From assembly GCA_014685065.1 (NCBI GenBank), contig GCA_014685065.1_4092.2: a DNA stretch of 64,000 bases. One strand, written 5' to 3'. Made by a program: the position numbers and the translations under genes. The number at the start of each line of letters is the position of its first letter. Positions within the stretch are counted from its first letter, which is position 1. The DNA comes from a phage. The notes under the pieces were generated by a model. That model was not told the origin of the DNA, did not search any database, and was given only the letters and a program-made list of their open reading frames with translations. Shown piece after piece: positions 26,208 through 45,122 of the stretch.

Positions 26208-26300
26208 GTAATCATAGGTAGTCATAAGTAATCATATATAAACATTTAAGTAATCATTTATAATCACTGTAGTGATCAGTAGTGATCAGTAGTGAGTACT
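26208..26300. repeat. cluster of GTAATCA(T) motifs plus tandem AGTGATCAGT x2 and AGTGAGTACT
   Basis: read directly in non-coding DNA. Confidence 0.6.
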
Positions 26301-26426
26301 AGAGTACAGGAATGTTCACGTTTAATCAAGAACGTAGCAGTACTGATATGCCACTAAGTAGGCAGAGGAAGTCTGCCGTACTTTGTAGTTTCCAAGCTCC
26401 TTTTCCATTTTGCAAATTACATCAAA

Positions 26427-26456
26427 TGTAATCAAAAGTAATCAAAAGTAATCACG
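26427..26456. repeat. tandem 10-bp repeat GTAATCAAAA x2 + GTAATCACGC
   Basis: read directly. Confidence 0.65.
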
Positions 26457-31188: not shown

Positions 31189-31356
31189 TACAGAGGGGAT
31201 CAATTGATCCCCTTTATATTTTTTGTACTGAATCATTTAATAGACGGATCTATGCACCCTGTGGGTTAGTGACTATCTCGTCTTTATGTAAGTATTATGC
31301 CAGTACTGGATGCAGTTGTCAAGACTTTTTTTTCAAATACTTTTATATCAAAGTAC

Positions 31357-34979: not shown

Positions 34980-35132
34980 ATGAAACAATATAACGCTCGG
35001 TTTGATGTTACTATCGGTAACGGGAAAGGTCAGTACTCTTTCAGTACTCGTAAAAGTTATACAGAAAACTTCCTGCGTAATTGTGCACTGACCGCCGCAC
35101 AAATTAAACATTACTTTCAGGCTAAAAAATGA
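34980..35132 (+). CDS. small hypothetical protein (50 aa)
   Basis: ATG after SD AGGAG. Confidence 0.45.
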   Translation: MKQYNARFDVTIGNGKGQYSFSTRKSYTENFLRNCALTAAQIKHYFQAKK

Positions 35133-35218
35133 AATCATTAGCTTACTATAGTTCGGCCCTGGTCGGTGCAGTACTGGCGGCATTGTTAGTAACCTATCTA
35201 TTCTTTATGGTGATTTAA
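35129..35218 (+). CDS. micro membrane peptide (29 aa)
   Basis: ATGA overlap; single hydrophobic helix; speculative. Confidence 0.3.
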   Translation: MKSLAYYSSALVGAVLAALLVTYLFFMVI

Positions 35219-35356
35219 ATGAATCCAAATAATATTATCTATCCTAACGCTAAAACGAAAGCAGATAAGGTAAACGCAAAAAAAGCGAAAGTAAAGCAGT
35301 ACATCAAGCAAGGCATGACACGCAAAGCGGCATTGCTTAAAGCTAAAAATAAATGA
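35219..35356 (+). CDS. small basic protein (45 aa)
   Basis: hand-translated; Lys-rich. Confidence 0.3.
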   Translation: MNPNNIIYPNAKTKADKVNAKKAKVKQYIKQGMTRKAALLKAKNK

Positions 35357-35362
35357 AAAAAG

Positions 35363-35394
35363 TGGTTGACTTCGGTCAGCCATTTTGCTATTAT
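35363..35394 (+). terminator. terminator/promoter dual element, copy 4 (variant)
   Basis: TGGTTGACTTCGGTCAGCCA + TTTTG + TATTAT. Confidence 0.55.
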
Positions 35395-35498
35395 ATATTC
35401 ATTGAGAGATAGCTCACTAGCCCACAGGGTGCAGGAATGTATCTATTGTATAATGATTGAGTACTGAAAACTATTTTAAAGTATTTGATAAAAAGTAC

Positions 35499-35557
35499 TT
35501 GCAAACTATCTCAATAAGCGTATAATGTTTTACATCGCAAGGGGAAACGGTTTCCCC
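35499..35557 (+). promoter_or_regulatory. early promoter cassette + hairpin GGGGAAACGGTTTCCCC
   Basis: TTGCAA 35499, TATAAT 35521. Confidence 0.6.
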
Positions 35558-35577
35558 TGGTAATAAGGAAACGAATC

Positions 35578-35919
35578 ATGACTATTGCAATTGCTCAATC
35601 TAACTTTGAAAACGAAATCATCGCTCAGGCACTGCGTTTAAATGATGGTCGGGCCGAAATCAATTACGGTTTCAATAGTGGTGGATGTGAAAAATATCAG
35701 TACTTTGTAACGGCTGATGGCTGTGTCCTGGGTATCAATACAGTTATTGTAAACATTCAGAAAATTAATTTCAATGATCCAGACGATAGCCAGTTTTACA
35801 TCACGGGCGTAGACGTGAACTACGAAGATGATTCCTTAACTGATGATTACACTGGCGAGAAGTTAGAAAGTGCATACGGTGAGGATGATTATCAGTCCGG
35901 TCCAGAAGATTTTGAATAA
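35578..35919 (+). CDS. hypothetical acidic protein
   Basis: ORF track. Confidence 0.6.
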   Translation: MTIAIAQSNFENEIIAQALRLNDGRAEINYGFNSGGCEKYQYFVTADGCVLGINTVIVNIQKINFNDPDDSQFYITGVDVNYEDDSLTDDYTGEKLESAYGEDDYQSGPEDFE

Positions 35920-35933
35920 TATTAAAAAATAGT

Positions 35934-35992
35934 TTGACAATAGTTTCCAGTACTGTATAATTAATTACATCAAGGGGAGAATAGTTCTCCCC
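35934..35992 (+). promoter_or_regulatory. early promoter cassette + hairpin GGGGAGAATAGTTCTCCCC
   Basis: TTGACA 35934, TATAAT 35956. Confidence 0.65.
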
Positions 35993-36014
35993 ACTAACAG
36001 AGAGAGAAAACAAA

Positions 36015-36197
36015 ATGGCTGAATTAATCGCTCGGAATACAATTGCAGGCGTTGAAGATGTAACATTATCATATGATTCAGATAAACAAGTTTACGTCAT
36101 TCGTTATGGTCTGATTGGTGTTAACGTTGATTCAATTGACGAAGCCTTTGAAAAATACTTTGAATTTATCAACCTGGCTTATGATGATTATCGTTAA
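36015..36197 (+). CDS. hypothetical protein
   Basis: ORF track. Confidence 0.5.
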   Translation: MAELIARNTIAGVEDVTLSYDSDKQVYVIRYGLIGVNVDSIDEAFEKYFEFINLAYDDYR

Positions 36198-36205
36198 AAA
36201 ATAGT

Positions 36206-36264
36206 TTGACAATAGTTTTAAGTACTGTATAATTAATTACATCAAGGGGAGAATAGTTCTCCCC
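36206..36264 (+). promoter_or_regulatory. early promoter cassette + hairpin (near-identical copy of 35934)
   Basis: TTGACA 36206, TATAAT 36228. Confidence 0.65.
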
Positions 36265-36281
36265 ACTAAGAGGAAAACAAA

Positions 36282-36500
36282 ATGGCTAATATCCGCACTG
36301 TACTGAAAAATGCAAAACAAGTTTTATTTTCTGACGATGAATATTTTAATCGCAATATCAAAGGCGTTCGGAACATTGAGGATGTAAAGGAATTATTTGG
36401 AATCAAAGGTAACGTATATCGTAAAGGATTGCACGGTAATCATTTTGAATATAAGTTAGCTGATAGTGATTATAACTTTACACTGACTATCATTAACTAA
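36282..36500 (+). CDS. hypothetical protein
   Basis: ORF track. Confidence 0.55.
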   Translation: MANIRTVLKNAKQVLFSDDEYFNRNIKGVRNIEDVKELFGIKGNVYRKGLHGNHFEYKLADSDYNFTLTIIN

Positions 36501-36510
36501 AAATATTATC

Positions 36511-36548
36511 ACAGTACTATTGACAACTGCCGATAGTACTGGCATAAT
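36511..36548 (+). promoter_or_regulatory. class II promoter with AGTACT inverted repeat
   Basis: TTGACA 36520, CATAAT 36543. Confidence 0.55.
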
Positions 36549-36592
36549 AACTTTTATCAACAGTAGTTAACTTAACCTAAGAGAGAAACATC

Positions 36593-36736
36593 ATGACAGC
36601 ATTAGATTCATTCATCGACGCAGTACTGGCAAAAACTGGCGAGGATCTGACCGCAGAACAATACGCGATGATCGAGCAATGCCAGCAAAACGGTAAATCG
36701 GTGAAAGATACTGTTAAGATTATCCGCAAGATGTAA
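36593..36736 (+). CDS. small hypothetical protein (47 aa)
   Basis: hand-translated; SD AAGAGAGAAA. Confidence 0.4.
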   Translation: MTALDSFIDAVLAKTGEDLTAEQYAMIEQCQQNGKSVKDTVKIIRKM

Positions 36737-36841
36737 GAATATAGCCCACTGGTTAACGCTGGTGGGCTTTAATCATTTACCCTATACAATGCCAGTACTA
36801 AACCGTTTATCTCGTTAGAATGCGTTACAGGACGTTTAACA

Positions 36842-37039
36842 ATGATTAGCATGAAATCAGTACAAAAACAAATTGATACATTATCAAAAATTAAACGTAA
36901 ACAGTACTCCTTAGAATATACAATCAATGGTAACTATCATCTAATGAAAGAAAATAATTTTATAGTCATTGATGAATCATTGCAAATCATTAGTATAGTA
37001 CTGAAAGCATTAATCAATGACAGAAAAAAGTTAAAATAA
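36842..37039 (+). CDS. hypothetical protein
   Basis: ORF track; weak SD. Confidence 0.4.
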   Translation: MISMKSVQKQIDTLSKIKRKQYSLEYTINGNYHLMKENNFIVIDESLQIISIVLKALINDRKKLK

Positions 37040-37370
37040 TCTATTGACAATATTATCCAGTACTGGCATAATACTTACATCAAGACGAGAACGTCACTAA
37101 CCCATAGGGTGCACAAATGTAACTGTATAATATTGATCAAAAAATGATCTGATCAATACTTGATCAATTTGCGTAAAGTAGTATAATTCTATGCAGTTGG
37201 TTAGACGAAAGGTTATGATTAGTAGTGGAAGTGTATAAAAATTTTCATGGTGTGGTGATCCGCACATATGGGGATGAATATGTCGTGTCGTATGGATTGG
37301 AAAAAGTAAGAACAAGTAATATACTTGTCGCGTTACAGTACTATAGTAATTTTATAATGAGGTTAAAATA

Positions 37371-37628
37371 ATGGCTGTAGGATTCACGAAAGATGGGGCC
37401 GAGCAAGACGAGATTAACGCAGTGATTCAGGCCGCTGTTAACCACGCTAGAACGCAAATTAACGCACAAATAGAATCACTGATACATTGCCTCGACTGCG
37501 GCGATAAAATCCCTGAGAATCGCCGCCAGGCAGTTAAGGGGTGTAAGTACTGCATCACTTGCCAGGCTGATCATGATAGCATATTCAAACGCAATCCCCG
37601 TAATTGTTGGCATAGATCTATGAGATAA
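37371..37628 (+). CDS. DksA/TraR-family C4 zinc-finger protein
   Basis: CLDCGDKIPENRRQAVKGCKYCITCQ matches CxxCG..IP..RR.A....CxxCQ. Confidence 0.7.
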   Translation: MAVGFTKDGAEQDEINAVIQAAVNHARTQINAQIESLIHCLDCGDKIPENRRQAVKGCKYCITCQADHDSIFKRNPRNCWHRSMR

Positions 37629-37634
37629 AAAGTA

Positions 37635-37662
37635 TTGACAGTGCTGTTAGTTAGTGTATAAT
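37635..37662 (+). promoter_or_regulatory. sigma70-like promoter TTGACA-N16-TATAAT
   Basis: read directly. Confidence 0.5.
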
Positions 37663-37691
37663 ATTTTATATCTTAACTGAGGATTGAAATC

Positions 37692-38048
37692 ATGGGTATA
37701 CAACATATCACGCGTACTACAGACAATGGTGAGATCACTGGCTATCAAGTACAAGGCAAAGTAGCACAATTGCAGTACTGGTTTGTTAAACGTGGCATTG
37801 TTGCACCAGATCTTGATTATAATCGTGTAGCGTTTATTGATTCTCTTTATGTTGATCCCGATAATCGCGGTAACGGTGAAGGTACTGAATTAATGAATGC
37901 CTTTATTGATGCCGCCGATGATTCAGATTGTATCATCTTAGAATGCGATACGGGAGAAGATAACGCATTTAATCTTAAAGAATGGTATGAAAGTTTTGGT
38001 TTTGAAGTGCTGATGGACTGCGAATATCCTATAATGATTTTATCCTAG
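37692..38048 (+). CDS. possible GNAT-type acetyltransferase
   Basis: motif-A-like YVDPDNRGNGEGTELMNAF (R-x-x-G-x-G); weak. Confidence 0.4.
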   Translation: MGIQHITRTTDNGEITGYQVQGKVAQLQYWFVKRGIVAPDLDYNRVAFIDSLYVDPDNRGNGEGTELMNAFIDAADDSDCIILECDTGEDNAFNLKEWYESFGFEVLMDCEYPIMILS

Positions 38049-38051
38049 TAC

Positions 38052-38110
38052 TTGCAATTAGTTTTAAGTACTGTATAATAGTTTACATGAAGGGGAGAAT
38101 AGTTCTCCCC
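38052..38110 (+). promoter_or_regulatory. early promoter cassette + hairpin
   Basis: TTGCAA 38052, TATAAT 38074, GGGGAGAATAGTTCTCCCC. Confidence 0.65.
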
Positions 38111-38127
38111 ACTACAAGGAAAGACAA

Positions 38128-38316
38128 ATGCAAAACTTATCAAGTATTTTAGTACAAGATGATTTCGGTAATCCTGGAAGTGCTATCATTGTTCGGGGTA
38201 ATAAAGCAACATTTGTTATTGCTGGTGGACCTGTACAGCGTAGCATTAAAAACAATGCAGTTACAATCAATAATGTTCGCTATCGCTTGGATAAAGAATT
38301 GATTCATAAACTGTAA
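38128..38316 (+). CDS. hypothetical protein
   Basis: ORF track. Confidence 0.5.
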   Translation: MQNLSSILVQDDFGNPGSAIIVRGNKATFVIAGGPVQRSIKNNAVTINNVRYRLDKELIHKL

Positions 38317-38343
38317 TATTAATTTAATAGAGGATAAAAATAA

Positions 38344-38667
38344 ATGTATATTCATACTACTATCACAAAAGAAGTTCGTTGTCAATTCGAAAGTATCCCT
38401 GGTGTATGTTTCATTACAGGCACTTTCTCACCTGGTGACCGTGATAATCCAGTACTGTTACAGTTACGCCATCCATTATGGGATAAAGCATTTGATCTGC
38501 CGTTGAATGAATTCGCAACCACTGCTGATAAGTACATTAAAAATATTCGCGAGAATGATTGCCTATTCATTAATGCTTTTAGTGATGCCGCGTTAAGTGA
38601 GATCCATGCTGTATTGGTTGCAATCATGGAATCAATGGAGAAAACTATATTCAAACAAGGTGAATAA
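38344..38667 (+). CDS. hypothetical protein
   Basis: ORF track; SD GAGGA. Confidence 0.55.
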   Translation: MYIHTTITKEVRCQFESIPGVCFITGTFSPGDRDNPVLLQLRHPLWDKAFDLPLNEFATTADKYIKNIRENDCLFINAFSDAALSEIHAVLVAIMESMEKTIFKQGE

Positions 38668-38673
38668 AAACTA

Positions 38674-38733
38674 TTGACAATGTAATCTAGTACTGTATAA
38701 TAGTTTACATGAAGGGGAGAAATGATTCTCCCC
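38674..38733 (+). promoter_or_regulatory. early promoter cassette + hairpin
   Basis: TTGACA 38674, TATAAT 38696. Confidence 0.65.
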
Positions 38734-38750
38734 ACTAAGAGGAAAGAAAC

Positions 38751-38963
38751 ATGCAAGGTCAACTAATCGTTCGTAAATGGTCTGATACTAACGAAAAACC
38801 GTGGGATGTTCAATATATCGGACCGGACGGTGTTTCACGTTATCAACCTGGCGTAACGCATAGTACTGAGCAATATGCCGCCGCTCACCGTGAACGCCTG
38901 TTAGAATCTATGAAACAGGGATTCTGTGAAAAATTCATTCAAGATCATTGGCTGAAAGATTAA
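38751..38963 (+). CDS. hypothetical protein
   Basis: ORF track. Confidence 0.55.
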   Translation: MQGQLIVRKWSDTNEKPWDVQYIGPDGVSRYQPGVTHSTEQYAAAHRERLLESMKQGFCEKFIQDHWLKD

Positions 38964-38980
38964 TAGAAGGAGTACAGCTT

Positions 38981-39073
38981 ATGCAAATGAATCCGATGAT
39001 TGTTGTGTTAGCTGTACTTATGGTCATTCATGCCATCGTAGAAGTACTAACACAATCAGGAGTAATACAATGA
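38981..39073 (+). CDS. micro membrane peptide (30 aa)
   Basis: SD AAGGAG 8 nt upstream; hydrophobic; speculative. Confidence 0.35.
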   Translation: MQMNPMIVVLAVLMVIHAIVEVLTQSGVIQ

Positions 39074-39400: not shown

Positions 39401-39433
39401 GGGATTGACTCCGGTCAGTCCCTTTGCTATTAT
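39401..39433 (+). terminator. terminator/promoter dual element, copy 5 (GGGATTGAC-TCCG-GTCAGTCCC variant)
   Basis: read directly. Confidence 0.55.
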
Positions 39434-39530
39434 ATACGCATAGAAACAAATCAGCCCACAGGGTGCATAAATGTATCTATTATATGCTGGTGGCTAGTAC
39501 TATCAAGTACTGAAAACTATTTTTAAAAAG

Positions 39531-42105: not shown

Positions 42106-42690
42106 ATGCGTAACTATACTAAATTCATCCGTTCACTTCATGCAATGGAAACCAACAAAGAGATCCTTTCAGCTTGTCGGTTAGCTGGACTGGAGATCGT
42201 CGGTGCGGGTTCTTCCCGTATTGTATTCGCTTTAAATGATCGGTTAGTGATTAAGGTCGCGAATTGTGATGCGGGTGTAGAACAAAATGAAACTGAATGT
42301 AAGGTATGGAATTTTTTAGATTATGACCGTCCGCACCTTAAACAGTTCTTTGCCAAGGTGCATATGCATTTATGCGATCCTGATAATCTGTTTATTGTTA
42401 TGGATCGTTTGAGTACTGCAAGCAAAGGCAGTGTAAAGCACGTAACCGCATGTAATGAGTTAAAGTACAATATTAAACGTAACACTATTGAACGCCATCA
42501 CCATTTCGCTGATGCTCTCAATCACGTTGATGATACATTATCCACACTAACGATAAGAGATATCAGAAAACAGAATATCGGCCAGGATCGCAACGGCTTG
42601 ATTAAAGTACTTGATTACGGTTTAACCCGCAATATCTGGAATCAGTACTATAAAAAACGTGATGTTAACGCGATAACTATAACACGATAA
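42106..42690 (+). CDS. protein-kinase-like protein
   Basis: Gly loop VGAGSSRIV, VIKVA lysine, RDIRKQNIG catalytic-loop-like, VLDYG DFG-like. Confidence 0.45.
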   Translation: MRNYTKFIRSLHAMETNKEILSACRLAGLEIVGAGSSRIVFALNDRLVIKVANCDAGVEQNETECKVWNFLDYDRPHLKQFFAKVHMHLCDPDNLFIVMDRLSTASKGSVKHVTACNELKYNIKRNTIERHHHFADALNHVDDTLSTLTIRDIRKQNIGQDRNGLIKVLDYGLTRNIWNQYYKKRDVNAITITR

Positions 42691-42704: not shown

Positions 42705-42737
42705 GGGATTGACTCCAGTCAGTCCCTTTGCTATTAT
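42705..42737 (+). terminator. terminator/promoter dual element, copy 6
   Basis: GGGATTGAC-TCCA-GTCAGTCCC + TATTAT. Confidence 0.55.
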
Positions 42738-42831
42738 ATATTCATTGAGAGATAACTCACTGACCCATAGGGTGCGGAAGTGTATCTATTATATAAGTAT
42801 TCAGTACTGAAAACTATTTGATAAAAAGTAC

Positions 42832-44965: not shown

Positions 44966-44999
44966 GGGATTGACTCCGGTCAGTCCCTTTGCTATTATA
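44966..44999 (+). terminator. terminator/promoter dual element, copy 7
   Basis: GGGATTGAC-TCCG-GTCAGTCCC + TATTAT. Confidence 0.55.
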
Positions 45000-45122
45000 T
45001 ACGCATAGACAAAAACTAGCCCACAGGGTGCAGAGAAGTATCTGTAAGATAGTTAATAACGGTGAGTAACTATCTGCTGGTGGATGTAATTCCAGTACTC
45101 AAAACTATTTCAAAAAAAGTAT

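What the first reader, a model, noticed from the sequence alone, without database searches (positions are those of the whole stretch)
37040..37370. 330-bp non-coding stretch with four GATC-containing TGATCA palindromes in 35 bp
ATTGATCAAAAAATGATCTGATCAATACTTGATCAATTT carries clustered GATC (Dam) sites, a hallmark of origins and Dam/SeqA-regulated promoters, just upstream of the TraR/DksA-like zinc-finger gene. The surrounding DNA holds another CCCATAGGGTGC element and a TTGACA promoter.
Basis: partly seen in the sequence, partly recalled or inferred. Interest (0 to 1): 0.4.

Follow-up and report, generated by a model that had tools for sequence, protein, structure and literature searches.

The report
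Phased GATC operator in phage cassette
The four clustered GATC sites are real and conserved, but they are not an origin: they look like the protein-binding control sites of a promoter inside a small, dispensable gene cassette of a jumbo E. coli phage, always travelling with a tiny 48-residue gene that may encode their binding protein.

Summary
The window comes from an Asteriusvirus (121Q/PBECO4-like jumbo coliphage). Four GATC lie in 31 bp (37135-37165), although GATC is depleted in this phage (observed/expected 0.58 in the window, 0.47 genome-wide). It is the densest GATC cluster in a 352-kb relative. Only three sites are TGATCA.

The stretch is not all non-coding. Bases 37225-37371 encode a 48-aa protein under purifying selection (121Q gp293, phrog_38664).

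The whole 332 bp is an insertion/deletion cassette bounded by a 13-bp direct repeat. At least seven related phages lack it, which rules out an essential origin or packaging site.

The cassette runs: promoter P1, a CCCAYAGGGTGC leader module, the GATC array, promoter P2, the 48-aa gene, then the DksA-like gene.

The site consensus is the 10-bp palindrome ATTGATCAAW. Sites mostly come in pairs exactly 11 bp apart, placed over or beside the -35 and -10 of P2. The same sites accompany homologues of the small gene in Erwinia phage Hallingskeid and several metagenomic lineages.

The parts
37028..37040 (+). Left copy of the 13-bp direct repeat AAGTTAAAATAAT. It includes the last codons and the TAA stop (37037-37039) of the gp292-like gene and forms the left edge of the 332-bp indel cassette.
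   Evidence: The alignment of 11 relatives shows G17 and phAPEC6 joining ...AGAAAA|A(G/A)GTTAAAATAATGGCT with nothing in between. Sequence read.
37044..37072 (+). Promoter P1, sigma-70-like: TTGACA-17 nt-CATAAT with TG before the -10. It has the phage's usual early-promoter form, with CAGTACTGG in the spacer.
   Evidence: Consensus scan gives 11/12 matches plus TG. The same form occurs at 36520-36548. Function is inferred, not shown.
37073..37125 (+). P1 leader carrying the CCCATAGGGTGC element (37101-37112) followed by ACAAATGTAACT. It is one copy of a repeated intergenic module of unknown role.
   Evidence: 8 copies in the window, none of 100 shuffles reaching 8. Contexts of all copies were compared by eye. 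The same module precedes the GATC array in Hallingskeid and in the metagenome loci.
37132..37141 (.). Site 1, ATTGATCAAA (GATC at 37135). First member of pair 1.
   Evidence: Orthologous site present in type B, Hallingskeid and L014-L019.
37143..37152 (.). Site 2, AATGATCTGA (GATC at 37146). It lies 11 bp from site 1 and is not a TGATCA palindrome.
37148..37157 (.). Site 3, TCTGATCAAT (GATC at 37151). First member of pair 2 and specific to the type A allele.
37159..37168 (.). Site 4, CTTGATCAAT (GATC at 37162). It lies 11 bp from site 3 and overlaps the -35 hexamer of P2.
37160..37187 (+). Promoter P2, sigma-70-like: TTGATC-16 nt-TATAAT. Predicted start near 37194, giving a 5' UTR of about 30 nt.
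   Evidence: Consensus scan gives 10/12 matches. The TATAAT and its flank GTATAATTCT are conserved between the diverged A and B alleles. The equivalent promoter in Hallingskeid is TTGACT-17-AATAAT. Function is inferred.
37126..37330 (+). Mosaic block: the operator array, P2 and the first ~35 codons of the small gene. It exists in two allelic forms, type A here and type B in 121Q.
   Evidence: Window versus 121Q identity is 62-65% inside the block and 95-99% in both flanks. 15 records carry type A identical over 37098-37224, and 13 carry type B.
37207..37212 (+). Shine-Dalgarno-like GAAAGG, 12 nt upstream of the GTG start.
   Evidence: Read from sequence. Type B has AAAGG at the same distance from a TTG start. 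Hallingskeid has GAGAGG 7 nt before its ATG.
37225..37371 (+). Gene for a 48-aa protein (121Q gp293 homologue, phrog_38664). The model has four beta strands and a C-terminal helix. It is the candidate binder of the sites. Its stop overlaps the next gene's ATG.
37360..37372 (+). Right copy of the direct repeat, AGGTTAAAATAAT. It forms the right edge of the cassette.
37371..37628 (+). TraR/DksA-like C4 zinc-finger gene (121Q gp294). It is translationally coupled to the small gene here, and to the gp292-like gene in phages that lack the cassette.
   Evidence: PF01258 at E 1.5e-11 and phrog_54. Annotation in relatives.

Best explanation
The GATC cluster is an operator array: a set of helically phased binding sites for a sequence-specific, probably dimeric, DNA-binding protein that controls promoter P2.

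The array sits inside a self-contained, dispensable 332-bp early-gene cassette in the long terminal repeat of an Asteriusvirus jumbo phage. The cassette order is P1, CCCAYAGGGTGC leader, sites, P2, 48-aa gene, with the DksA-like gene directly downstream.

Each site approximates the 10-bp palindrome ATTGATCAAW. [quoted passage not shown] They lie just upstream of, or over, the -35, the -10 or the transcription start.

The most likely ligand is the cassette's own 48-aa product. Binding would repress P2 (negative autoregulation) and might also block read-through from P1. This would set the dose of the small protein and of the co-transcribed DksA-like protein early in infection.

Shown here: the sites, their phasing and their conservation; their co-inheritance with the gene; the promoter-like context; the dispensability of the cassette; and that the gene is coding.

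Inferred, not shown: that the promoters fire, that any protein binds, that the binder is gp293, and the sign of regulation. Because every site has GATC at its centre, binding could additionally depend on Dam methylation.
For: 1. Co-inheritance. Homologues of the 48-aa protein (29-38% identity to the window protein) carry the same sites in front of the gene although the neighbouring genes differ. This holds in Erwinia phage Hallingskeid and in metagenome loci L014-L019 and L124-L129. Five other CCCAYAGGGTGC/P2 modules in this window precede other genes and have no GATC sites.

2. Conservation beyond GATC. Over 21 sites from five lineages: GATC 21/21, T at -1 19/21, T at -2 14/21, A at -3 15/21, A at +4 18/21, A at +5 17/21. 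This gives the palindrome ATTGATCAAW. Sites that are not orthologous share it too: type A site 3, type B sites 4 and 5, and the Hallingskeid sites over the -10.

3. Phasing. Every intact pair is exactly 11 bp apart in all lineages, while the 4-nt spacers differ.

4. Position. Sites overlap the -35 in the window, flank or overlap the -10 (GATCAATAATTGATC) in the Hallingskeid group, and lie just downstream of the -10 in type B.

5. Constraint. Within type A the 185-bp non-coding part differs at 1-3 positions. The small gene differs at 13-15 of 147 and the DksA-like gene at 21-23 of 257. The 127 bp spanning 37098-37224 are identical in 15 genomes.

6. Operator layout and the protein's N-terminal part diverge together as one mosaic block.

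8. The cluster is unique in the genome apart from one further ATTGATCAA pair in TH47. This fits a local, gene-specific control element.
Against: 1. There is no experimental datum of any kind.

4. The window's own allele of the protein is not basic in its sheet region (sequence).

5. Two lineages of homologues, Pectobacterium phage CBB and P0013, have plain promoters without any GATC site. The protein therefore does not always come with the operator.

6. In L124 one member of each pair has decayed.

7. P1 lies upstream and would read through the array, so P2 control alone may not govern expression.

8. The type B -35 (TGGATC) is too weak to pass the promoter scan.
Confidence: 0.45

Rival explanations
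1. Dam/SeqA-sensing promoter. The GATC pairs are read through their methylation state. Injected DNA would be fully methylated, by host Dam or by the phage's own Dam-family enzyme. DNA that has replicated is transiently hemimethylated and is bound by host SeqA, which needs two or more GATC on the same helix face. SeqA binding would switch P2 off (or on) once replication starts, giving a replication-coupled timer for these early genes. No dedicated phage repressor is needed.
For: - GATC is the only fully invariant core (21/21 sites).
- Pairs are 11 bp apart. [quoted passage not shown]
- All known carriers with a named host infect Dam+/SeqA+ Enterobacterales: Escherichia, Salmonella, Erwinia.
- The phage family encodes a PF05869 Dam-family N6-adenine methyltransferase (E 2.3e-31). 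It is present in TH47 but not in this window.
- GATC is otherwise strongly avoided (observed/expected 0.47-0.58), so a retained cluster is unlikely to be neutral.
- Sites overlap the -35 and -10, as in known methylation-sensitive promoters (own knowledge: IS10 pIN, dnaA P2, lambda pR/SeqA).
Against: - Dam and SeqA need only GATC, yet six flanking positions are conserved into a 10-bp palindrome, including at non-orthologous sites.
- The sites are tied to one small gene family rather than to early promoters in general.
- In L124 and L127 partners of pairs have decayed to GTTC or other sequence while the remaining site keeps the full ATTGATCAA consensus.
- The specificity of the phage methyltransferase is untested.
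Confidence: 0.25
2. Operator for a different trans-acting factor. The binder would be a host transcription factor or another phage protein rather than the adjacent 48-aa product, and the small gene would simply be its regulated target.
For: - All the cis evidence for a sequence-specific binder applies: palindrome, phasing and promoter overlap.
- Evidence that the 48-aa protein binds DNA is weak.
- Homologues without sites exist.
- A second ATTGATCAA-N-ATTGATC pair lies upstream of an unrelated 174-aa ORF in TH47. That would fit a small regulon.
Against: - No candidate factor with an ATTGATCAAT site came to mind, and a text search for TTGATCAA gave only noise.
- The second pair occurs only in 9 genomes, all of which also carry the type B cassette. 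This fits the cassette protein equally well.
- Co-transfer of sites and gene across genera is most simply explained by a self-contained unit.
Confidence: 0.13
3. RNA-level element. Because TGATCA is self-complementary, each 11-bp pair can form a 5-7-bp hairpin with a 4-5-nt loop in the P1 read-through transcript. Such hairpins could affect RNA stability, processing or translation.
For: The array lies inside the predicted P1 transcript. Folding gives hairpins over the pairs. The z-score is -1.74 in the window and -2.83 in Hallingskeid.
Against: - Predicted structures differ between lineages.
- The window z-score is weak: 11 of 200 shuffles fold at least as well.
- Outer stem positions change without compensation (TGATCA/TGATCT, CGATCA/TGATCA) while the GATC core never varies.
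- Loop length is fixed at exactly the value that gives 11-bp phasing.
- Single unpaired sites are conserved, for example type B site 3.
- No Rfam family matches the region.
Confidence: 0.05
4. Replication origin or P1-type packaging (pac) site. Clustered GATC/TGATCA hexamers would serve as in oriC or in the P1 pac site, which has seven TGATCA/G hexamers in 161 bp and whose cleavage is controlled by methylation.
For: There is a superficial match of four TGATC(A/T) hexamers to one arm of P1 pac (PMC10028697). An unrelated GC-rich phage contig (L040) has five 20-bp TTGATCAAAAAATGATCAGA repeats between terS-like and terL genes, showing that such arrays can sit at packaging loci.
Against: - The whole segment is absent from at least seven viable relatives.
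- It lies about 12 kb inside a 21.5-kb direct terminal repeat, not at a terminus.
- There are no DnaA boxes in it and no skew switch.
- There is no second hexamer arm.
- The sites move relative to the promoter between alleles.
Confidence: 0.02

Closest known systems
Autoregulated operator plus small repressor units of phages (lambda Cro/OR, P22 Arc and Mnt operators)
   Same: Short palindromic sites lie over the -35/-10 of the promoter that drives an adjacent very small gene. Sites are multiple and helically phased, which suggests cooperative binding. The unit is portable.
   Different: The protein is not helix-turn-helix or ribbon-helix-helix by model: it has four strands plus one helix. Binding is untested. 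The site core is a Dam site. A strong constitutive-looking promoter (P1) lies upstream.
AP2 / integrase-N-terminal 'DNA-binding domain' fold (plant and apicomplexan AP2; lambda and HPI integrase arm-binding domains)
   Different: There is no sequence-profile match to AP2. Foldseek does not recover it. The model has four strands rather than three. The protein stands alone at 48 aa, without an HNH or integrase partner.
Dam/SeqA-controlled promoters and sequestration sites (dnaA promoter, oriC, lambda pR activation by SeqA, IS10 pIN)
   Same: GATC clusters lie in or next to core promoter elements. Pairs sit on the same helix face, as SeqA prefers (PMC2691817). The host has Dam and SeqA, and the phage has a Dam-family gene.
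   Different: Conservation extends to a 10-bp palindrome. The association is gene-family-specific. No methylation data exist.
Bacteriophage P1 pac site
   Same: It has repeated TGATCA/G hexamers that contain Dam sites (PMC10028697).
   Different: P1 pac has two hexamer arms around a cleavage site inside pacA and is essential. The cluster here is single, sits at a promoter, lies mid-terminal-repeat, and is dispensable.
PeSL mobile regulatory cassettes of T4-type phages (PMC2839356, PMC4122927)
   Same: Small early genes are each flanked by promoter/stem-loop motifs. Presence/absence polymorphism between close relatives occurs at short repeats. Many P1 copies in this window are embedded in terminator hairpins, like composite promoter-terminator PeSLs.
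   Different: This is a different phage lineage with different motif sequences. The repeat mediating this indel is the 13-bp gene end A(A/G)GTTAAAATAAT, not the promoter motif. PeSLs are not described with a gene-specific operator.

Membership tests
Dam/SeqA-regulated promoter | GATC within or next to the -35/-10 of a promoter | tested here: met
   GATC 37162 lies in the -35 of P2. In the Hallingskeid group GATC sites flank the -10. The promoters themselves are only consensus predictions.
Dam/SeqA-regulated promoter | Two or more GATC on the same helix face within a few turns (the SeqA requirement) | tested here: met
   Pairs are exactly 11 bp apart in all lineages. SeqA preference from PMC2691817.
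Dam/SeqA-regulated promoter | Expression or protein binding changes with the methylation state of the GATC sites | not testable with these tools
   This needs dam/seqA host genetics or 6mA sequencing.
Dam/SeqA-regulated promoter | Recognition explained by GATC alone, with flanks free to vary | tested here: not met
   Flanks are conserved to ATTGATCAAW: T at -1 in 19/21 sites, A at +4 in 18/21, A at +5 in 17/21.
Replication origin (oriC-like or phage ori) | Present in all replicating relatives | tested here: not met
   The segment is absent from G17 and phAPEC6. By coverage it is also absent from Sharanji, ECO103 4-12-1, EC22.5-2, ph0011 and UE-S1.
Replication origin (oriC-like or phage ori) | Initiator boxes or iterons, and a strand-composition switch | tested here: not met
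   There are no DnaA boxes in 37040-37370, and the window count is at chance level. GC skew stays positive across the site.
P1-type pac site | Two clusters of TGATCA/G hexamers flanking a cleavage site at the packaging start | tested here: not met
   There is one cluster only. It lies about 12.1 kb inside the 21,525-bp terminal repeat of vB_Ec-M-J and is dispensable.
Autoregulated operator plus small DNA-binding protein unit | Palindromic or repeated sites overlapping the core promoter of the regulator's own gene | tested here: met
Autoregulated operator plus small DNA-binding protein unit | Sites and gene are inherited together across different genomic contexts | tested here: met
   Sites and gene occur together in type A, type B, the Hallingskeid group, P0009, P0010, P0011 and P0012. 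Sites are absent in the CBB and P0013 lineages, which also lack the leader module.
Autoregulated operator plus small DNA-binding protein unit | The adjacent gene product is a DNA-binding protein that recognises the sites | tested here: inconclusive
AP2 / integrase-N DNA-binding domain | Three-stranded antiparallel sheet packed against one helix | tested here: inconclusive
AP2 / integrase-N DNA-binding domain | Sequence-profile match to the family (PF00847 or relatives) | tested here: not met
   No Pfam hit at E up to 1 for the two members tested. A library-wide HMM search returns only small stand-alone proteins and two long repetitive ones.
PeSL-like mobile regulatory cassette | Presence/absence polymorphism of a small early gene with its own promoter between close relatives, bounded by short repeats | tested here: met
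   332-bp indel bounded by 13-bp repeats at 37028-37040 and 37360-37372.
PeSL-like mobile regulatory cassette | The recombining repeat is the promoter/stem-loop motif itself | tested here: not met
   The repeat is the gene-end/start sequence A(A/G)GTTAAAATAAT, not a promoter.

The most novel reading that the evidence does not exclude
A 48-residue stand-alone AP2/integrase-arm-like protein may be among the smallest sequence-specific repressors known. It would read a GATC-centred palindrome (ATTGATCAAT) whose occupancy is gated by adenine methylation from host Dam and the phage's own PF05869 enzyme. Full methylation on the injected DNA and hemimethylation after replication would give opposite outcomes. 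The result would be a replication-coupled epigenetic timer for early genes, including a DksA-like RNA-polymerase factor, in the terminal repeat of jumbo phages.
Probability: 0.1. Interest if true: 0.65.

Novelty: new member of a known kind. Interest (0 to 1): 0.4.

Why it matters
Regulation in Asteriusvirus and Rak2-like jumbo phages is essentially unstudied. My searches of the available paper library returned no study of their promoters or operators.

This locus offers a compact, testable regulatory unit: about 60 bp of sites plus a 48-aa protein. It controls, or at least sits in front of, a DksA-like factor that may act on host RNA polymerase.

If the small protein binds the sites, it defines a new family of mini-repressors (phrog_38664 and perhaps the many same-fold 47-70-aa phage orphans seen in BFVD). 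It would also be a portable operator/repressor pair.

Either way, the finding corrects current annotations. The small gene is missed or mis-called in several genomes, and a spurious reverse-strand ORF is annotated over the sites in JP4 and ELP-22.

Tried and rejected
- **Origin reading.** DnaA-box search and skew profile were negative. Dispensability settles it.
- **Pac-site reading.** Rejected on position within the terminal repeat and on dispensability.
- **Known RNA families.** Nothing relevant in Rfam at E up to 1 over 35000-39000.
- **RNA hairpin reading.** Folds are weak and inconsistent, with no compensatory change.
- **Reverse-strand ORF 37097-37315.** It is annotated in shortened form in JP4 and ELP-22, but is broken by stops in all frames in type B, so it was rejected as a gene.
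- **IMG/VR scan for GATCAA-N5-GATC...GATCAA-N5-GATC.** It gave 94 stretches of matching DNA, none of them this family. They were collagen-like coding repeats, unrelated 11-bp iterons, and a GC-rich phage array. The family is simply rare in that collection: one IMG/VR locus, which is 121Q itself.
- **Sequence-level link of the 48-aa protein to any known family.** Pfam, PDB sequence profile, Foldseek-PDB and the 1.8-billion-protein HMM search all gave nothing. The afdb50 library was unavailable.
- **Upstream region of the remote paralogue gp289 (36015-36197).** It has a plain promoter plus a 5' stem-loop and no repeats, so the site array is not a general property of this fold family.
- **Test using the second site pair (TH47:26415).** The locus exists only in 9 genomes, all of which also carry the type B cassette. 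It could not separate 'cassette protein' from 'other factor'.
- **Literature search for TTGATCAA as a known binding site.** It returned only noise.

Full report
**Source and setting**

The window is from an Asteriusvirus, a 121Q/PBECO4-like jumbo myophage of E. coli with a genome of about 350 kb. Bases 36000-39000 match 56 phage records at 80-95% identity. In relatives whose ends were determined, this region lies inside the long direct terminal repeat. In vB_Ec-M-J the repeat is 1-21,525 and the homologous spot is at about 12.1 kb. Records for Pectobacterium phage CBB and Klebsiella phage fENko-Kae01 also annotate terminal repeats over related loci. The neighbourhood is a run of very small + strand genes, each with its own near-consensus sigma-70-type promoter.

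**Checking the observation**

The quoted sequence is present, with GATC at 37135, 37146, 37151 and 37162. The window has 122 GATC. That is 0.58 of the maximal-order Markov expectation, which makes GATC the second most avoided 4-bp palindrome after GCGC. Four sites in 31 bp never occurred in 400 order-3 Markov simulations. They occurred in 44 of 20,000 random placements of 122 sites.

In the complete 352,450-bp genome of relative TH47, GATC is at 0.47 of expectation, and the homologous locus is the densest GATC cluster in the genome. So the cluster is real and non-random.

Two details of the description are wrong. First, only three of the four sites are TGATCA; the second is TGATCT. Second, the stretch is not all non-coding. 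Bases 37225-37371 form a 48-codon ORF with a GTG start and a GAAAGG Shine-Dalgarno-like sequence 12 nt upstream. It is annotated as gp293 in 121Q and in several other relatives. It matches phrog_38664 at E 1.4e-31. It shows dN/dS of 0.14-0.21 between its two allelic forms, with no indels. A reverse-strand ORF over the sites, annotated in JP4 and ELP-22, is broken in the other allele and is probably spurious.

**The segment is a cassette**

Aligning relatives shows that the entire 332 bp between the stop of the gp292-like gene and the ATG of the TraR/DksA-like gene is a presence/absence polymorphism.

- G17 and phAPEC6 lack it. There the gp292-like stop overlaps the DksA-like ATG.
- Five more records (Sharanji, ECO103 4-12-1, EC22.5-2, ph0011, UE-S1) show the same 455-bp span and so also lack it.
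- The segment is bounded by a 13-bp direct repeat, AAGTTAAAATAAT at 37028-37040 and AGGTTAAAATAAT at 37360-37372. The cassette therefore reproduces the TAATG stop/start overlap.
- G17 keeps the right-hand variant of the repeat and phAPEC6 the left-hand one. This fits deletion by recombination at different points within the repeat, but the direction of the event is not resolved.

Dispensability in viable phages excludes an essential origin or packaging site.

**Anatomy of the cassette**

| Feature | Coordinates | Evidence |
|---|---|---|
| P1, TTGACA-17-CATAAT with TG | 37044-37072 | |
| Leader with CCCATAGGGTGC | 37101-37112 | |
| Four GATC sites | 37132-37168 | |
| P2, TTGATC-16-TATAAT (10/12 matches) | 37160-37187 | |
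| 48-aa gene | 37225-37371 | |
| DksA-like gene (PF01258, E 1.5e-11) | 37371-37628 | |

The CCCATAGGGTGC leader is one of 8 copies of a repeated module in the window. In the other modules, the same P1-leader unit is followed 60-90 bp later by a second promoter (CTTGCAA-N17-TATAAT). That promoter is preceded by AGTACT/A-rich sequence and has no GATC. The GATC array therefore replaces the usual upstream region of a P2-type promoter, and site 4 supplies its -35.

**Two alleles**

Fifteen records carry the window's form (type A), identical over 37098-37224. Thirteen carry a diverged form (type B; 121Q, fEgEco12, Turkey3 and others). Between the window and 121Q, bases 37126-37330 are only 62-65% identical while both flanks are 95-99% identical. 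The sites, P2 and the N-terminal two-thirds of the protein therefore form one mosaic block.

Type B has GATC at relative positions 0, +11 and +27, as in type A. It lacks the +16 site and has an extra pair, again 11 bp apart, just downstream of the -10.

Within type A, the 185-bp non-coding part differs from the window at only 1-3 positions. The small gene differs at 13-15 of 147 and the DksA-like gene at 21-23 of 257.

**Wider conservation**

Erwinia phage Hallingskeid has the same layout: P1 in a terminator hairpin, CCCACAGGGTGC, ATTGATCAAgaaaTGATCAA, a -35 TTGACT, then TTGATCAATAATTGATC over the -10. A 60-aa homologue of the small protein follows (35% identity; phrog_38664 at E 5.8e-7). The neighbouring genes are different.

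Six metagenome loci (L014-L019) encoding close relatives of the Hallingskeid protein show the same two pairs, each exactly 11 bp apart.

A whole-library HMM search found 17 proteins. All are 47-74 aa except two long repetitive proteins that are probably spurious. Among the more remote lineages whose loci were fetched:

- P0009, P0010, P0011 and P0012 keep the leader module and ATTGATCAA sites upstream of the -35 and/or GATCAATAAT over the -10. Some pair partners have decayed.
- P0013 and Pectobacterium phage CBB have neither the module nor any GATC site, only a plain promoter. The CBB homologue is unannotated.

Over 21 sites from five lineages the consensus is ATTGATCAAW, itself a palindrome. 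Counts are GATC 21/21, T at -1 19/21, T at -2 14/21, A at -3 15/21, A at +4 18/21 and A at +5 17/21.

**The small protein**

An AlphaFold2 model built from a nine-sequence alignment is confident (pLDDT 94.6) and shows four beta strands followed by a C-terminal helix.

- Foldseek against the PDB finds nothing significant.
- Pfam (two members tested) and a PDB sequence-profile search are negative.
- BFVD shows the same fold in many uncharacterised 47-70-aa phage proteins.
- A remote paralogue in the window (36015-36197, phrog_9374) has an ordinary promoter and no repeats.

A DNA-binding role is therefore a lead, not a result.

**Interpretation**

The best-supported reading is that the GATC cluster is an operator array for promoter P2 of a portable early-gene cassette, bound by a sequence-specific, probably dimeric protein. 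The cassette's own product is the most economical candidate, acting as a negative autoregulator and possibly as a roadblock to P1 read-through. The supporting features are:

- a 10-bp palindromic consensus;
- fixed one-turn phasing with variable spacers;
- placement over core promoter elements;
- stronger conservation than the adjacent coding sequence;
- inheritance together with one small gene family across genera and different gene neighbourhoods.

It is favoured by the invariant GATC core and by same-face pairs, as SeqA prefers (PMC2691817). It is also favoured by Dam+/SeqA+ hosts, by strong genome-wide GATC avoidance, and by a PF05869 Dam-family methyltransferase gene in the phage family (located outside this window). 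It does not explain the conserved flanks or the gene-specific association. The two readings are compatible, since an operator could be methylation-sensitive.

Other readings fare worse:

- Hairpins in the P1 transcript are weak and inconsistent, and lack compensatory changes.
- Origin and P1-type pac readings (PMC10028697) are excluded by dispensability, position, and the lack of initiator boxes or a skew switch.

**Genome-wide uniqueness**

In TH47 the cassette is the only place with two or more pairs. One further ATTGATCAAAAATTGATC pair lies upstream of an unrelated 174-aa ORF. That locus exists only in nine genomes that also carry the type B cassette, so it cannot tell us which factor binds the sites.

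**Verdict**

This is a real, conserved and previously unannotated cis-regulatory array in a mobile early-gene cassette. It is most likely an operator, and it is not an origin. It is a new member of a known kind, with moderate interest. All mechanistic steps (promoter activity, binding, the identity of the binder, methylation dependence) are inferred and need the experiments listed.

Noticed in passing
whole window; also TH47 genome (L116-L123): The tetramer GCGC is completely absent: 0 in the 64-kb window against 52 expected, and 0 in the 352-kb TH47 genome against 172 expected. This looks like total avoidance of a GCGC-specific restriction activity, or a consequence of some other constraint on the DNA.
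   Followed up: partly
whole window: GTAC is over-represented (623 copies, observed/expected 1.53). AGTACT occurs 248 times in 64 kb. CAGTACTGG sits in the spacer just 5' of the -10 of the early promoters seen here, and AGTAC directly precedes the -35 of P2-type promoters. It is probably part of the phage's promoter grammar.
   Followed up: partly
27455(-), 29144, 31254(-), 35421, 37101, 39455, 42764, 45020: CCCAYAGGGTGC is a repeated, orientation-consistent element. In most copies it lies about 19-28 nt after the -10 of a promoter (P1) and is followed by ATGTATCTAT and, 60-90 bp later, a second promoter. It is conserved in Erwinia phage Hallingskeid and in metagenome contigs. Its function is unknown; a leader or antitermination-type site, or a protein-binding site, are guesses.
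   Followed up: partly
35385-35412, 39415-39445, 42725-42755, 44980-45010 (approx.): Several P1 promoters have their TTGACT -35 inside a terminator-like hairpin (for example aaaaaagggaTTGACTccggtcagtccctttgcTATTAT). These resemble the composite promoter-terminator PeSL motifs described for T4-like phages in PMC4122927.
   Followed up: no
31194-31211: An 18-bp perfect palindrome, GGGGATCAATTGATCCCC, is followed by a T-run. It is a terminator-like hairpin that happens to carry two GATC 8 bp apart.
   Followed up: no
26262-26300: A short tandem repeat, GTGATCAGTA x2-3 (cactgtagtGATCagtagtGATCagtagtgagtact), lies just after a TATAAT. It accounts for two of the window's 14 TGATCA.
   Followed up: no
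42162-42403: A second, looser GATC cluster (5 in 242 bp) lies inside a 194-aa ORF whose N-terminus reads like a protein-kinase glycine loop (by eye, no domain search run). The homologous TH47 region (90512-90599) is the only other place in that genome with 4 GATC in 100 bp.
   Followed up: partly
L116 (TH47) 26415-26429: A second ATTGATCAAAAATTGATC pair with 11-bp spacing lies about 40-55 nt upstream of a minus-strand 174-aa ORF. The locus is found only in nine genomes that also carry the type B cassette.
   Followed up: partly
L114 (Pectobacterium phage CBB) about 692-838: An unannotated 48-aa homologue of the small protein (38% identity to the Hallingskeid protein) sits between two annotated genes, inside the terminal 'redundant repeat'. 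It has a plain TTGACA-N17-TATAGT promoter and no GATC sites.
   Followed up: yes
L040 2815-2915 and L101 (IMG/VR contigs): An unrelated GC-rich phage carries four or five 20-bp tandem repeats, TTGATCAAAAAATGATCAGA (8-10 TGATCA hexamers). They lie between a terS-like ORF region and a large-terminase gene with an intein-like insertion (both called by eye from the translations). It is a candidate pac-type site.
   Followed up: partly
about 25 IMG/VR contigs (L020, L022, L025, L026 and others): A family of IMG/VR contigs, many from one sample, has 4-8 tandem 11-bp units GATCAATCAGT immediately upstream of TATAAT and a Shine-Dalgarno sequence. This is another GATC-containing, one-turn-phased array at a promoter.
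   Followed up: no
36015-36197: The gp289-like 60-aa protein (phrog_9374) is a remote relative of the 48-aa protein (HMM E 7e-4 within the window's ORFs). It has an ordinary promoter plus a 5' stem-loop. The BFVD fold search shows many 47-70-aa phage orphans with this fold.
   Followed up: partly
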